A stretch of DNA of 64,000 nucleotides, taken from the NCBI GenBank assembly GCA_964106915.2, contig OZ066923.1. One strand, 5' to 3'. Position numbers: made by a program. The DNA is from Podarcis gaigeae. Its lineage: Eukaryota. Shown in pieces: positions 5,201 through 47,200 of this stretch. Positions within the stretch are counted from its first letter, which is position 1. Each line of letters starts with the position of its first letter.

Positions 5201-8200
5201 AGCAACACTGTTAACAGTGCCATCATTCAAGTTAAGTTTCTGATAAGATGGTGTCCAATTTGGTGGAGAAACTTGAAATCCCATTACTCACAGAGTTCCA
5301 TGTTTAAAAAATTTCATTTAAACTGAAATAAGTAGGGTGTGAATAAAAATCCATTTTGAGGATCAATCACATTCAGTGTTCTCCAAGTATAAAAAGTCAC
5401 CCAACCGTCTTTCATCTCAAACTCCCATGTGGCATTCTTTAAATACATTCCAGAAATTAATCTTCAATGTTTAAAGGAGCAACTGGATTAAATATTGGCC
5501 TCTCCTTTTTTTCTTGTATCTTTCCGTAAGTAACTTCAAAATCCATTTTTGTCCCAGTCAGGCATTCTAGAGTTCTGCCTTTTAGACTGTATCCTATGGC
5601 ATCTAATTTTTTAATCCTATATTGCACTATTTCTGCTGACAGTTCTAACACTGCAGGTGTTTGTTTAATTTGGTCCACAGAAATTCCCACCTTCAATAGC
5701 CCCTCCAGTCTTTCTTCCAGCACTGGAACTGAGTAGTAGAGAAGGGCAGGGCATTTTATTATTAGCTCTTTTAATTCTTGATCACTGCATTTGAAGATGT
5801 TCTTGGAGAACAGCAGGCTGTTCTGCATGCTATTAGGGTTAAGCTGAAAAACAAAGCCCTTCAGCTTGGATAGCAGACTCAAAACTTCAAAGTCAGTGAA
5901 TTTGTTCTTCTGAAAAAACCCCAAATTTTCTTCAACAGCAGCCGAAGAATTTAACAAAATAAATGGGTTTTGACTCAGTAATTTCATCATCCAGTTCTTC
6001 ATATTTTCCTGTGAACCTCCTAGCCTTATATAGTTACTTTGTAGGGTTTCTATCATATGCTTGTTCTTTGCAACAGGATTATAAAAAATATTTGATGCGC
6101 TTGTTAGGAGCCGGCTGATAACCGCATTTTTCAGTCCCAGATCTTTGAAGAACCTAACGTTGGCTTTCTGGTTTTCATAGTTTTTAACTGTAAAAAAGGA
6201 GTCTGGGAACCGTTTTATTAATTCAACTAGTTGTTTTTCGTTTTGGCAGACTGATAACCACAATTCCCTCTGATAATGGATATCTGTAGGGCTACAAAGA
6301 ATTGCCTCAGGACAGCGTTCAAAAATATATGCCACAGAACTCTTGTCAGCTCCCATTTCTTGCAAAATCTTAGCTGTTTCCTTGATGTGCGTCATCTCTT
6401 TTGAGAGCACCCATGGCTTTAGCCTACGGATCTTCTTGATATCCACAGATAACTCATAGAGGCTTTGTACAGTAGCCTTGTTCTCTCCAGCAGCGACATC
6501 AGATGTATATCGAAAATGCAGTAAAAAGTTTCTGTTGTGTCTTTGATTCCATAAGGCTGAAAGAGCTGGCAACAGCAGGCGAGGCTGAGATCGCATAAAT
6601 AGATTTGGAGCAACGTGGGTCATTTCAGTTTGTGATTTAGCACTATGTCTGAGAAGGCCTGAAAGAATGAAAGTATTTGAGATAGTATTAATACTGTGCC
6701 TGTTCAACCTTTCTTTTTTTGGGGGGGAGGGAGAACAAGAAAACAATATTTTCCCCACTTAGGGAATTTCTGCTCCTGTTTAACAACAATCTTTCCAGGC
6801 TGTAATTATGCTCCACTCTGTGGCAGCTGCATTCAAATATTCATATTTAAATAATGTGTATGCTTGGCACCTTCTGTCTCAGCCAGATATAAATGATAAA
6901 CGACTGGTAATCTGTAGCAGAATTTATGTTAGTAGGTCAACAGAAACTTGCAATGCAAGAGGCTGGGTGCCTGTTGCTACACCTCCTGAGACCTAATAGG
7001 GGGTAAAATAAAACCACACACTTTAACTGCCGGAGGAATTGATCAAGAGGACCAAGGAATGGATGGGAAAGCACAATTACCTGCTACATCTGTATTGTTA
7101 AGGTAAGTGCACCAGTCACCTTCACACACCCATGACAGTTAAATCTATTTGTTTTCATTTTTTTAAAGGTCCCATTTCACAACTTTACTCTCGCCTATTT
7201 TGCGATGCCTCTATTTTTTCACCATCACAGAAGCAGGTGGAACTTCAGGAGACATGCACCATGTTTTTGGCAAAACTTTAAAAGAGCTTTGGTCCCTTGA
7301 AGTACCATGGAGGTAGCCATGTTACTGAAAAACCCTGCCCACAGAGGCTCCCCTATTGTACAACTTTCGTTATATGCTGAAGACCCACCTCTTTTTTATA
7401 TTGATAGGAGGTTTTTTTTGGGGGGGTCAGTCTGGATGATGCCCCGAGTCCCTTCTGATCCTTGAGATCCTGGATCTGTGCAAGCTTGCCAAACCAGTTC
7501 CTTTATCTTTAAGGTAAAGATTTTGGGTAGCCATTTAAGCACCGCAATCAGGACAACCAAATTAGTTACCCTGCTTGGAAATTGGGGTGGCATGTATCAA
7601 TATATTTAGGATGCATTCCAGTTGTGACTGCTATGGGAGGAATGCTAGAATCGGGTTGTAAAGTCTGCTTCTTATTTATTTTATTATTTTAAGGCTGGCA
7701 TAAGCAGCACCGGATTTAGGTTTGATGAGGCCCTAAGCTACTAAAGGTAATGGGGCCCTTTATATGTCCAGTTGTCCATTGTCGACAACAAATTGTCACT
7801 GTTTTTTGTGTTGAATATATGCTATATGGTAATTTATGGACCTAACAGGTATCTAAAGCCATTTGCACATAACAGAATACATATTTTATTAAATAATTGT
7901 TGAACTGAAATGCAATTAAGAAGAAGCATATTAACAGTGAAATAATTATTAAGCTCTAACTTAAAATGATTGGGGGCCCATTACTTACATCACAGGAGCC
8001 TACACAACACAAAACACTGTTGCTGTATGTAGGCTTTATTTTATTTGTTTTTTGTCTTATATTTTGGAAATGTACATCCTGTGTTTTTTCCATGGGGGGG
8101 GGGCAAGAGAGTGGGGCCCTAAGCTATAGCTTGTTTAGCTGATACGTAAATCCGGCACTGCACTGGTGGCCAGGTGTGTGCCAAACACCGCGCTGTCCCT

Positions 8201-44200: not shown

Positions 44201-47200
44201 GTCTTATGGCACCTTACATGCAGCACAACTTATGCAAGTGATGAAGCAGTCATTAAATTAAATTATGAACAGACAATGTATGCAGAAAATGTGATTCATT
44301 ACATATAAAAACATATTAACAAATATTAAAATGTATGCAAGGTATGGTAACAAGTTTCAGAAAGAGAAAACATATAATATTTATTGAGAATTAATTCCTA
44401 ATGGACTGATTCATTTTTGTCTTGCAGCTTTGCTGAAAGAGAAGGATCCACACCCTAAAATTTCAGGGCAAAATTATTTCACTTCATATTGGAATTAAAA
44501 GTTTTTGTGAGAGTACTTGTATTAAAATGTGCATTTTCATGCATTTATTTTCACACAGTCTGAATGGTTGTAAACAAGTATGTTTTTTAATGCATTGTTT
44601 CTAACTGGTATTTCTATGGTTTTTAAACTTTTAATGACTCACAAAGGGGAAATAGAGAATTGTAAATAAAGCATTTGGTGATGAATTTGGTAACTTACTG
44701 TAAATATAAGCATTCATGATTAGTGATAGACTCATCAATATATTTTTGATATTTCATGTATGGCTTTCAGAAAAGGCTTTAATTGGATGGATATAAAATG
44801 GAAACTGTCCAGACAATGATGACCTTGATCATTTTTAGATTTAATATTTTTAGATTCGGGGCAGGATTTTTGACCCCTTTATGAACCAAACTGTCTTTTC
44901 AAAATGGTCAGCTCTTATATGTCTGTGTATAAAATACAATAGAGATGTTACTCTATGAAAATACAGCTGTATATAAGTCTCATATGCCAATATTTTGTTA
45001 AACTATGAAGTTGTCATGTCTGATGTTTTGTCCTTGTATTTCCCACTGCCTTGTTCAATCACAGTGAGGATGCCCTTGTTAATAAAAATGTATATACAGG
45101 TTGTTTCATTTAAGTCTTGTTTTTGAGCAGATTTTGTATTGGTCTAGTCAATACCGTTTTTAAGAAGTGCTAGCATACAAGTTTTGAATTGCTTATACCT
45201 TGTGTTTATAGAATTTTATAGCTTCAAATAGCATTTGAAGAGTTTAATCACCCTCACTAGCTATTGTCCTAAGCACCCACAGCCAAGGAAGGCACATATC
45301 TGATAGCTAATCCTTTACTGACAAAAGTGCGTACTTAAAGCAACTCTCACAGTGCTCCAGAAGTCCAGTTACTGAACTTAAATATGGAACATGTTTACTT
45401 CTGATATTTTGCCTCTTATAAGGGTAGTAGTTCCTGTTATTCCTTTCACAATGAGTCCCTCTGCATTTCTTTTCTGCATTCAGCTGGAAGCAGGTTTATC
45501 CCTGGTTCCATATGGCATTTGTGGCAATGCTATCTTCTACATTACTATCCTGCCAGTGGTACCTTGGGTTACATACACTTCAGGTTACATACACTTCAGG
45601 TTACAGACTCCGCTAACCCAGAAATAGTGCTTCAGGTTAAGAACTTTGCTTCAGGATGAGAACAGAAATCATGCTCCGGTGGCGCGGCAGCAGCAGGAGG
45701 CCCCATTAGCTAAAGTGGTGTTTCAGGTTAAGAACGGACCTCCGGAACGAATTAAGTTCTTAACCCGAGGTACCACTGTACTTGCTCTGGTTTTTAGTAG
45801 TAAATATTTGCTTTAGTACACAAAGAATTTAAACAGGATATAAAAATGGCAAACATTGCCTGTTTAATTCCTGGGAACAGGTAACATATTACAGTGGTGC
45901 CCCGCAAGACGAACGCCTCGCAAGACGAAAAACCCGCTAGACGAAAGGGTTTTCCGTTTTGGAGGCGCTTCGCAAAACGAATTTCCCTATGGGCTTGCTT
46001 CACAAGAATTTCCCTATGGGCTTGCTTCGCAAGCGCTGCCGCCCGCCAGCATTTTAAGATCGCCCCGGACAGCGGAGAAGTCCTCCGCTGTCCCGGGGTT
46101 TTTAAAATGTGGGCGGGCGGCAGCGAAGGCTTCGCTGCCGCCCGCCAGCATTTTAAAATCGCCCCGAGAAGTCTCCGCTGTCCCGGGGGCTTTTAAAATG
46201 CTGGGGGACGGCAGCGAAGGGTTCGCTGCTGCCCGCCAGCATTTTAAGATCGCCCCGGGACAGCGGAGAAGTCTCCGCTGTCCCGGGAAGGCAGGCAGGG
46301 GGAAGCAAAGACTTTCGCCCCCCGCCGGCCTTCAGAAGAGGTCGGGGGACAGACTGTCCCCGGACCTGGTCTGAAGGCGGTTTCCATAGGAACGCATTGA
46401 TAGATTTTCAATGCATTCCTATGGGAAACCGTGCTTCGCAAGACGAAAAACTCGCAAGATGAAAAGACTTGCGGAACGAATTAATTTCGTCTTGCGAGGC
46501 ACCACTGTACAAGAAATAAAATAGTAGCAATGCAGGTTGAAATGCTCCTGGTTAGTTCTATAGTAAAGAACAGGGAACTAGGCCTAAATCTGGTATGCAA
46601 TTCCCAAGTAGCTGATTTTTTGAATTTAACTGTGACACCAGTGCAGCAAAGTGCAACCATAAAATATAGTGCAAACATCATAGAAAGGTGGAGCTTTTCT
46701 CTGTCACCAACTGCTTCACAGTTCCACTCCTCCATGCAAGGTGAGTTAATACCACTTTCCCAGTTCCCACATTAGAGGTTAGCACTGCAGTTGCACTTAA
46801 AGTTAGAAAAAACACTGCAGCCCAGGTCTTGAAACATGGAGGACTCCCAGGAAAACCCTTGAATGCAGTAGTTTTTGCAACCATTTTGTCTGGATTCTCC
46901 AGAAAACCAGAATAAACTACTTAAACACCAGTTCTTTATGGTTTATTACTATCCATATAAATCTTTAGGAATAATAAAAATCCATTGAATTTATTTGTTA
47001 ATCTGAATGGTGAAAGTAATCAAGCTTTTTGCGGAGTTCTTTTTTTAAAAATAAAATAAAATCAAACCTCTGTTCTTGTCAATTTGACCTATAGAGGGTG
47101 CTCCAAGAGCTAAAGTATGATTTCTTCTTCTTCACCTCATACATCTCTGGGATAGCCAGCACTTTTGTAAACAGTATACAAACAATATGCCCAGCCAGTG

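What the first reader, a model, noticed from the sequence alone, without database searches (positions are those of the whole stretch)
8165..45105. CRY1 is head-to-head with MTERF2, inverted relative to human and mouse
Seen: TMEM263(+), MTERF2(-), CRY1(+), with the two CpG islands ~4 kb apart and divergent. Established: in human and mouse CRY1 is on the same strand as MTERF2, with its 3' end next to the MTERF2 promoter. Inference: a gene-sized inversion (breakpoints within ~8.7-12.4 kb and beyond 45.1 kb) in one lineage. It places clock D/E-boxes close to a mitochondrial transcription regulator and moves the mammalian CRY1-upstream desert to the 3' side. Which state is ancestral is not visible here.
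Basis: partly seen in the sequence, partly recalled or inferred. Interest (0 to 1): 0.65.

Follow-up and report, generated by a model that had tools for sequence, protein, structure and literature searches.

The report
Lizard CRY1 faces MTERF2 head-to-head
In this lizard genome the clock gene CRY1 points away from its neighbour MTERF2 rather than towards it as in mammals, which is an ordinary one-gene flip whose lineage of origin could not be determined here.

Summary
The window has no N. It carries the last coding exon of TMEM263 (+), a single-exon MTERF2 coding sequence (-, 6623..5460) and a complete-looking CRY1 (+, ATG 14080, stop 41247-41249). Two CpG islands, 8101-8800 and 12601-14600, lie 3.8 kb apart. 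MTERF2 is 96% identical to the Zootoca vivipara protein, so the source is a lacertid lizard.

The contrast with mammals is supported. Human rs2287161 is described as downstream of CRY1 and as lying between CRY1 and MTERF2. One rodent gene model fuses CRY1 (N-terminal) to MTERF2 (C-terminal).

A single-gene inversion is the simplest explanation. No gap and no flanking inverted repeat points to a misassembly.

Which lineage inverted could not be tested, because no vertebrate genome collection was available and no paper read states gene strands.

The regulatory idea is weak. The pair is not a bidirectional promoter: the clock boxes lie 3.8-4.7 kb from the MTERF2 island. MTERF2 is already rhythmic in human cells and is induced together with Cry1 in sheep.

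Verdict: real, ordinary, low interest.

The parts
1881..2240 (+). TMEM263 last coding exon. This is a stop-to-stop ORF, and the true acceptor lies inside it.
   Evidence: Pfam UPF0444 5.8e-44, profile positions 1-91 of 91.
5460..6623 (-). MTERF2 coding sequence, a single exon of 388 aa. ATG at 6623-6621, stop at 5459-5457.
   Evidence: Pfam mTERF 1e-26. 96% identity to Zootoca vivipara MTERF2. An AG acceptor at 6660-6659 lies upstream of the ATG.
8101..8800 (-). CpG island taken as the MTERF2 promoter and non-coding exon 1. A GTAAGT donor lies at 8219-8214 on the - strand.
   Evidence: CpG o/e 0.74 and GC 0.554. Sequence read. The promoter role is inferred; there is no RNA evidence.
8801..12568 (.). 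Interval between the two promoters. It must contain the proximal junction of the rearrangement.
   Evidence: None of the 18 ORFs of 55 aa or more here reached a Pfam gathering score; the best was 17.7 bits against a cut-off of 27. It holds a MITE-like copy at 9553-9985.
12569..12578 (-). D-box-like motif GTTATGTAAC upstream of CRY1.
   Evidence: One of 3 window matches to RTTAYGTAAY, with 0.70 expected by chance.
12601..14600 (+). CRY1 CpG island. It holds the reverse E'-box AACGTG at 13449-13454, the E-box CACGTG at 13469-13474 and CCAAT at 13487-13491.
   Evidence: CpG o/e 0.98. Sequence read. E-box listed.
14080..14237 (+). CRY1 coding exon 1 (ATG at 14080). A GT donor lies at 14238.
   Evidence: tblastn with P0020, P0052, P0105 and P0022. 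Pfam DNA_photolyase positions 1-50. Sequence read.
30082..41249 (+). The remaining CRY1 coding exons, given as tblastn blocks: 30082-30195, 31341-31511, 32489-32677, 34703-34792, 35473-35619, 35714-36031, 37185-37676 (reads as two exons with a small intron), 38440-38523, 39722-39826, 40989-41246 (two exons with a small intron). Stop at 41247-41249.
   Evidence: Pfam DNA_photolyase and FAD_binding_7 on single-exon ORFs. Block limits are alignment limits and were not refined to splice sites.
41250..45105 (+). Putative CRY1 3' UTR, up to the distal AATAAA at 45081-45086. Earlier + strand AATAAA signals lie at 43291, 43304 and 44665.
   Evidence: Inferred, with no RNA evidence.
45106..64000 (.). 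Flank 3' of CRY1 with no recognisable gene; repeat-rich.
   Evidence: No Pfam hit in the ORFs of 55 aa or more scanned up to 63354. Dispersed repeats and tandem repeats.

Best explanation
This is the orthologous TMEM263-MTERF2-CRY1 locus of a lacertid lizard. CRY1 is genuinely oriented head-to-head with MTERF2. Relative to mammals, a segment containing CRY1 alone has been inverted, so CRY1's promoter island, rather than its 3' end, now lies about 4 kb from the MTERF2 promoter island. Each gene keeps its own CpG-island promoter. CRY1 keeps a clock-type promoter: an E-box and E'-box beside a CCAAT box about 610 bp upstream of the ATG, and a D-box about 900 bp further upstream. The inversion is most likely neutral. 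Which lineage it happened in is open. From branch lengths alone, with no data, I put roughly 55% on the sauropsid/lepidosaur side and 45% on the mammalian stem.
For: Shown:
- Gene identities and strands.
- CRY1 exon 7 is 100% identical to Zootoca, turtle and other CRY1 proteins.
- There is no N anywhere in the 64 kb, so no scaffold join lies at the junction.
- None of the 19 inverted-repeat pairs of 60 nt or more has one arm in 8.8-12.6 kb and the other beyond the CRY1 stop.
- blastn of 8701-13400 against 41250-64000 gives 0 hits at E<=1e-3.
- Human: rs2287161 is 'downstream of CRY1' and 'between cry1 and MTERF2'.
- Rodent: the fused model P0103 has photolyase/FAD domains at residues 1-433 and mTERF at 637-902. 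It was the only protein of 680-2000 aa that matched MTERF2, out of 5278 candidates.
- The TMEM263-MTERF2-CRY1 order is reported as conserved across gnathostomes, including green anole and chicken (PMC9897032, passages).

Inferred: that a single inversion explains the difference, and that it is neutral.
Against: - The orientation in any other non-mammal was not seen, so 'inversion' rests on a two-clade comparison.
- The mouse and human strand assignments are recalled from annotation. Only the human 3'-end adjacency and one rodent fused model come from calls.
- The distal breakpoint is not in view.
- A contig-level assembly flip cannot be excluded without reads.
- The MTERF2 transcription start and the CRY1 poly(A) site are predicted from sequence only.
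Confidence: 0.8

Rival explanations
1. The head-to-head state is ancestral for tetrapods (or amniotes) and the inversion happened on the mammalian stem. The lizard would then simply retain the old arrangement.
For: Nothing in the calls contradicts it. Fused CRY1-MTERF2 gene models, which require the same strand, were found only in a rodent. None came from the many bird, reptile, amphibian or fish annotations among the listed hits. This is weak negative evidence.
Against: No positive evidence. The lack of fused models is expected for most well-annotated genomes whatever the orientation. The search for longer proteins warns that finding none is weak evidence.
Confidence: 0.45
2. Assembly artefact: the CRY1-bearing segment was flipped during contig assembly, and the true genome has the mammalian orientation.
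For: Not excluded without reads. Repeats lie near both candidate junctions: MITE-like copies at 7706-8160 and 9553-9985, a SINE-like dimer at 12591-12838, and a repeat block at 45577-46257.
Against: There is no N in the window. No inverted repeat pair brackets CRY1 within the window, so there is no visible substrate for a flip.
Confidence: 0.05
3. Functional reading: the flip puts MTERF2 under CRY1's clock elements, either through divergent transcription or a shared regulatory domain. MTERF2 would then become clock-controlled in lizards in a way it is not in mammals.
For: An E-box/E'-box/CCAAT cluster lies at 13449-13491 and a D-box at 12569-12578. These are 3.8-4.7 kb from the MTERF2 island. 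A further CACGTG lies at 9298-9303, about 0.5 kb beyond that island.
Against: - The islands are 3.8 kb apart, beyond the usual limit of under 1 kb for a bidirectional promoter (that limit is recalled).
- Window-wide motif counts are at chance: CACGTG 6 against 3.6 expected (17 of 100 shuffles reach 6), and D-box 3 against 0.7 (6 of 100 shuffles reach 3).
- MTERF2 mRNA already cycles in human corneal endothelial cells (PMC9123520).
- Mterfd3 is induced 3.7-fold alongside Cry1 at 10.3-fold by melatonin in sheep pars tuberalis (PMC3689899 Table 1). Both are in the mammalian orientation, so co-regulation does not need the flip.
Confidence: 0.1

Closest known systems
Mammalian TMEM263-MTERF2-CRY1 locus (human 12q23.3, mouse chromosome 10)
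   Same: Same three genes in the same order. TMEM263 and MTERF2 are convergent, MTERF2 has a single coding exon, and CRY1 is multi-exon (order conserved per PMC9897032).
   Different: In mammals the 3' end of CRY1 faces the MTERF2 promoter and the two genes are on one strand (rodent fused model; human and mouse strands recalled). Here the 5' end of CRY1 faces it. The lizard gene spans about 31 kb from ATG to putative poly(A); the human gene is about 100 kb (recalled).
Mammalian Cry1 combinatorial clock promoter (E/E'-box and D-box in the promoter, RREs in intron 1; Ukai-Tadenuma et al. 2011, recalled and not read here)
   Same: An E-box and E'-box beside a CCAAT box, a D-box upstream, and one RRE-like match in intron 1 at 25288-25298. 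BMAL1 binds two sites in mouse Cry1 (PMC3043000, Fig. S2 legend).
   Different: The function of the lizard motifs is untested. The RRE count is at chance (2 against 1.78 expected). A 248-bp repeat dimer sits between the D-box and the E-boxes.
Bidirectional (divergent) promoter gene pairs
   Same: Head-to-head orientation, with a CpG island at each 5' end.
   Different: There are two separate islands 3.8 kb apart. The putative starts are about 5 kb apart, not under 1 kb.

Membership tests
CRY1 orthologue (vertebrate type II cryptochrome) | N-terminal photolyase domain and FAD-binding domain | tested here: met
   Pfam PF00875 and PF03441 on four single-exon ORFs.
CRY1 orthologue (vertebrate type II cryptochrome) | Closest to proteins named CRY1 rather than CRY2 or CRY4, over the whole length | tested here: met
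   Exon 7 is 98-100% identical to named CRY1 proteins of lizards, turtles, birds and mammals. Lizard CRY1 P0020 (618 aa) aligns from residue 1 to 618 in collinear blocks. No CRY2 or CRY4 protein was compared directly.
CRY1 orthologue (vertebrate type II cryptochrome) | Conserved neighbourhood TMEM263-MTERF2-CRY1 | tested here: met
   order reported as conserved across gnathostomes in PMC9897032.
MTERF2 | mTERF repeat domain and highest identity to named MTERF2 proteins | tested here: met
   Pfam mTERF 1e-26. 96% identity to Zootoca MTERF2, 71-83% to other named squamates, 63-70% to birds, turtles and crocodilians.
Evolutionary inversion | Same gene content with one segment reversed relative to another lineage | tested here: met
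   The window has CRY1's 5' end towards MTERF2. In human, CRY1's 3' end is towards MTERF2. A rodent fused model shows the same strand.
Evolutionary inversion | Polarity fixed by outgroups | not testable with these tools
   No vertebrate genome collection was available. The papers read give gene order only. Supplements are closed.
Evolutionary inversion | Both breakpoints located | tested here: inconclusive
   The proximal junction is bounded to 8.8-12.57 kb. The distal junction lies beyond 45.1 kb and may be outside the window. No flanking inverted repeats were found.
Bidirectional promoter pair | Divergent transcription starts less than about 1 kb apart in one shared CpG island (criterion recalled) | tested here: not met
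   Two islands, 8101-8800 and 12601-14600, lie 3.8 kb apart.
Scaffolding artefact | Assembly gaps (N) at the junctions of the flipped piece | tested here: not met
   No N run in the 64,000 bases.

The most novel reading that the evidence does not exclude
CRY1 and MTERF2 have stayed immediate neighbours across jawed vertebrates even through an inversion, because they share a regulatory domain. MTERF2 is rhythmic or co-induced with CRY1 in mammals. In lizards the head-to-head layout would couple the mitochondrial transcription regulator MTERF2 even more directly to CRY1's E/D-box clock input.
Probability: 0.12. Interest if true: 0.45.

Novelty: new member of a known kind. Interest (0 to 1): 0.2.

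Why it matters
If true, this is one more single-gene micro-inversion between amniote lineages. It could serve as a rare-genomic-change marker once its distribution across squamates, tuatara, turtles, birds and amphibians is read from assemblies. It also gives a natural experiment on whether gene orientation affects the co-expression of a clock gene and its mitochondrial neighbour. It does not change what is known about CRY1 or MTERF2 function. The arrangement should already be visible in public annotations of lacertid genomes, although none of my literature searches found a paper that describes it.

Tried and rejected
1. Fused gene models as a proxy for strand in other taxa.
- A search for longer proteins with MTERF2 found 1 match among 5278 candidates, the rodent P0103.
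- The full-library HMMER search returned 119 proteins. I scanned 5 long or odd ones with Pfam and none had cryptochrome domains.
- Among the 120 listed CRY1 hits, only P0103 carries an mTERF domain.
- Result: no information on non-mammals.

2. N-terminally extended MTERF2 isoforms of birds and geckos (P0132, P0154, P0191, P0201). Against the CRY set, the listed rows (P0121-P0178; the printout was cut at 3,000 characters, so the rows for P0191 and P0201 were not seen) match only the mTERF part of P0103. These isoforms have no hit to the window outside the MTERF2 exon at E<0.3. Uninformative.

3. A possible second MTERF2 relic downstream of CRY1. Recurrent weak tblastn hits fall at 43997-44179 (E 0.02-0.9). 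A profile built from 120 MTERF2 homologues and run against 2195 window ORFs found only the real gene (4.3e-215). The next best was E=4.7, and the ORF in question scored E=81. Rejected.

4. A CHST16 or other gene remnant in the intergenic and 3' flanking DNA. I scanned 148 of the 172 ORFs of 55 aa or more listed for the intergenic and flanking parts of the window. The 18 ORFs in 1-5.3 kb and the 6 beyond 63.1 kb were left out. None reached a Pfam gathering score.

5. Literature. The searches found no paper describing CRY1/MTERF2 orientation in any non-mammal. One search was too broad to be useful.

6. Strand-compositional skew was considered as a dating tool and dropped. Transcription-linked skew travels with the gene when the gene is inverted.

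7. Rfam and tRNA scans found nothing.
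Full report
WHAT IS IN THE WINDOW

The 64,000 bases contain no N and have 41% G+C with a background CpG o/e of 0.33. Three genes were recognised.

(i) TMEM263. The + strand ORF 1881-2240 covers the whole Pfam UPF0444/C12orf23 profile at 5.8e-44. This is the last coding exon of TMEM263.

(ii) MTERF2.
- The - strand ORF 5457-6758 matches Pfam mTERF at 1e-26.
- From its first ATG (6623) it encodes 388 aa.
- These are 96% identical over their full length to the cluster representative named 'transcription termination factor 2, mitochondrial [Zootoca vivipara]'.
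- Identity is 83% to Rhineura, 82% to Elgaria, 71-79% to the other named squamates, and 63-70% to birds, turtles and crocodilians.
- The source is therefore a lacertid lizard or a very close relative.
- An AG acceptor at 6660-6659 precedes the ATG, so the coding sequence lies in one exon, as in mammals (that mammalian MTERF2 has one coding exon is recalled).

(iii) CRY1.
- The full-length CRY1 of the lizard P0020 aligns to the + strand only, in 11 collinear blocks from 14080 to 41246. The other three reptile CRY1 proteins (P0052, P0105, P0022) give 10 or 11 blocks.
- Two of the blocks contain in-frame stops or a length excess. They therefore read as two exons each, separated by a small intron.
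- The stop codon is at 41247-41249.
- Single-exon ORFs carry the photolyase and FAD-binding Pfam domains.
- Exon 7, searched on its own, is 98-100% identical to named CRY1 proteins of lizards, turtles, birds, marsupials and fish.
- I searched the gene exon by exon and mapped it with natural homologues.

THE TWO CpG ISLANDS

- One island spans 8101-8800 (GC 0.554, o/e 0.74, 40 CpG). The other spans 12601-14600 (GC 0.609, o/e 0.98, 181 CpG). They are 3.8 kb apart.
- The second island contains CRY1 exon 1 (ATG 14080, GT donor at 14238). About 610 bp upstream of the ATG it holds AACGTG (13449-13454, an E'-box read on the other strand), CACGTG (13469-13474) and CCAAT (13487-13491).
- A perfect D-box consensus, GTTATGTAAC, lies at 12569-12578.
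- The first island is the nearest one upstream of the MTERF2 coding exon on the - strand. It contains a GTAAGT donor at 8219-8214, plus CCAAT-like and ETS-like motifs (the motif names are recalled). Its role as the MTERF2 promoter and non-coding exon 1 is an inference without RNA evidence.

The observation 'TMEM263(+), MTERF2(-), CRY1(+), two divergent CpG islands about 4 kb apart' is therefore confirmed.

IS IT INVERTED RELATIVE TO MAMMALS?

From recalled annotation, human and mouse CRY1 and MTERF2 are on one strand, with CRY1 upstream. Two kinds of call results agree with this.

- Three human genetics papers place rs2287161 'between cry1 and MTERF2' (PMC9188878 and PMC7850819, passages) and 'downstream of CRY1' (PMC8592106, passage). 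In human, then, the 3' end of CRY1 faces MTERF2.
- One rodent gene model (P0103, Scotinomys teguina, 942 aa) has the photolyase and FAD domains at residues 1-433 and an mTERF domain at 637-902. Its C-terminal part aligns to squamate and bird MTERF2 proteins. Such a fusion is possible only if both genes lie on one strand with CRY1 first.

In the window the opposite end of CRY1 faces MTERF2. Because CRY1 is still the immediate neighbour of MTERF2, the simplest event is a flip of a segment holding CRY1 alone. A larger inversion would have carried CRY1 away from MTERF2.

The proximal junction is bounded by the MTERF2 island and the CRY1 D-box, that is 8.8-12.57 kb. The distal junction lies beyond the putative poly(A) site: a + strand AATAAA at 45081-45086, with earlier ones at 43291, 43304 and 44665. 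It may lie outside the window.

ARTEFACT?

- There is no gap in the window, so the orientation is not a scaffolding choice.
- Of the 19 inverted-repeat pairs of 60 nt or more, none has one arm in the proximal junction interval and the other beyond the CRY1 stop. All but the two close-set palindromic pairs (I8, I17) are dispersed copies 61-167 nt long and 80-96% matched.
- A sensitive blastn of 8701-13400 against 41250-64000 found nothing at E<=1e-3.
- A contig-level error cannot be excluded without reads, but nothing in the sequence invites one.

WHICH LINEAGE?

The only contig collection open here covers bacteria and archaea.
- The papers that treat the locus state gene order but not strand, in the text and legends I could read. 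PMC9897032 reports TMEM263-MTERF2-CRY1 as conserved across gnathostomes, including green anole, chicken, gharial and slider. PMC4558521 and PMC4350181 cover synteny in fish. PMC10043435 places chst16 beside tmem263 and cry1 in Xenopus.
- Figures and supplements were not available.
- Fused gene models, used as an indirect read-out of strand, yielded only the rodent case.
- Extended MTERF2 isoforms of birds and geckos gave nothing.
- My split of about 55% reptile side to 45% mammalian stem comes from branch lengths only.

FUNCTION

The pair is not a bidirectional promoter. The islands are separate and 3.8 kb apart, and the E-box cluster is about 4.7 kb from the edge of the MTERF2 island.

Window-wide, the clock motifs are not enriched:
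- CACGTG occurs 6 times against 3.6 expected.
- RTTAYGTAAY occurs 3 times against 0.7 expected, and 6 of 100 shuffles reach 3.
- The RRE pattern occurs 2 times against 1.8 expected.

Their placement at the CRY1 promoter matches the mammalian Cry1 design (recalled: Ukai-Tadenuma 2011). BMAL1 binds two sites in mouse Cry1 (PMC3043000, legend).

MTERF2 is already listed among clearly circadian mRNAs in human corneal endothelial cells (PMC9123520). Mterfd3 rises 3.7-fold together with Cry1 (10.3-fold) after melatonin in sheep pars tuberalis (PMC3689899, Table 1). Co-regulation therefore exists in the mammalian orientation and needs no flip. The head-to-head layout may change it, but there is no evidence for that.

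REST OF THE WINDOW

- Nothing coding was found between the promoters or in the 3' flank. Of the 148 ORFs of 55 aa or more that were scanned, none reached a Pfam gathering score.
- A profile of 120 MTERF2 homologues found only the real gene among 2195 ORFs. The weak tblastn hits in the CRY1 3' UTR are therefore noise.
- Rfam and tRNA scans were empty.

VERDICT

The arrangement is real and the contrast with mammals is supported. It is an ordinary micro-inversion of unknown polarity, and the proposed regulatory consequence has no support. No literature search found it described, but it should be visible in public annotations.

Unchecked:
- Gene orientation in any other non-mammal.
- Reads for this assembly.
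- The supplements and figures of the synteny papers.
- The closed collections viral contigs and metagenome contigs, which would not bear on this question.

No contig that I take for human was encountered.

Noticed in passing
window 12591-12838; related copy at 26788-26919: An inverted dimer of a repeat unit of about 130 nt. Its arms (12622-12722 and 12738-12838) are 99% complementary with a 15-nt spacer. It sits between the CRY1 D-box and the E-box cluster. Each arm is 97-98% identical to a single copy in CRY1 intron 1, which suggests a very young, possibly still active SINE-like element inserted into the clock promoter.
   Followed up: partly
window 7706-8160 and 9553-9985: Two direct copies (85% column identity) of an element of about 450 bp with terminal inverted repeats (CAGTGCCGGATTTA...TAAATCCGGCACTG), so MITE-like. 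They bracket the putative MTERF2 promoter island. The finding's start coordinate, 8165, lies right at the end of the first copy.
   Followed up: partly
window 16035-16178, 17985-18151, 21480-21646, 29172-29333, 56615-56731, 63789-63950: A dispersed repeat family of about 160 nt at 80-86% identity. Several of the minor CpG-rich patches in CRY1 intron 1 (15701-16400, 17701-18400) coincide with these copies, so they are probably repeats rather than regulatory islands. The CACGTG matches at 15951 and 17900 lie in or beside these patches.
   Followed up: no
window 45577-46257: A repeat block that begins about 470 nt after the putative CRY1 poly(A) site. It holds a dispersed repeat (45577-45780, with copies at 54180 and 58002) followed by CpG-rich tandem and palindromic repeats (27-nt unit at 45979-46033, 91-nt unit at 46075-46257). 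These make an apparent CpG island at 45801-46600 with o/e 1.01.
   Followed up: no
window 60441-60845 (+): A 134-aa ORF whose sequence looks like the C-terminal tail of a BovB/RTE-type LINE protein. That resemblance is recalled; Pfam found nothing. It would fit a squamate genome.
   Followed up: no
window 24038-24342: A tandem duplication of a 150-bp unit (2.0 copies, 93% match) in CRY1 intron 1.
   Followed up: no
protein P0103 (Scotinomys teguina), not in the window: A deposited rodent gene model fuses CRY1 and MTERF2 into one 942-aa protein. This is probably a read-through or annotation merge.
   Followed up: partly
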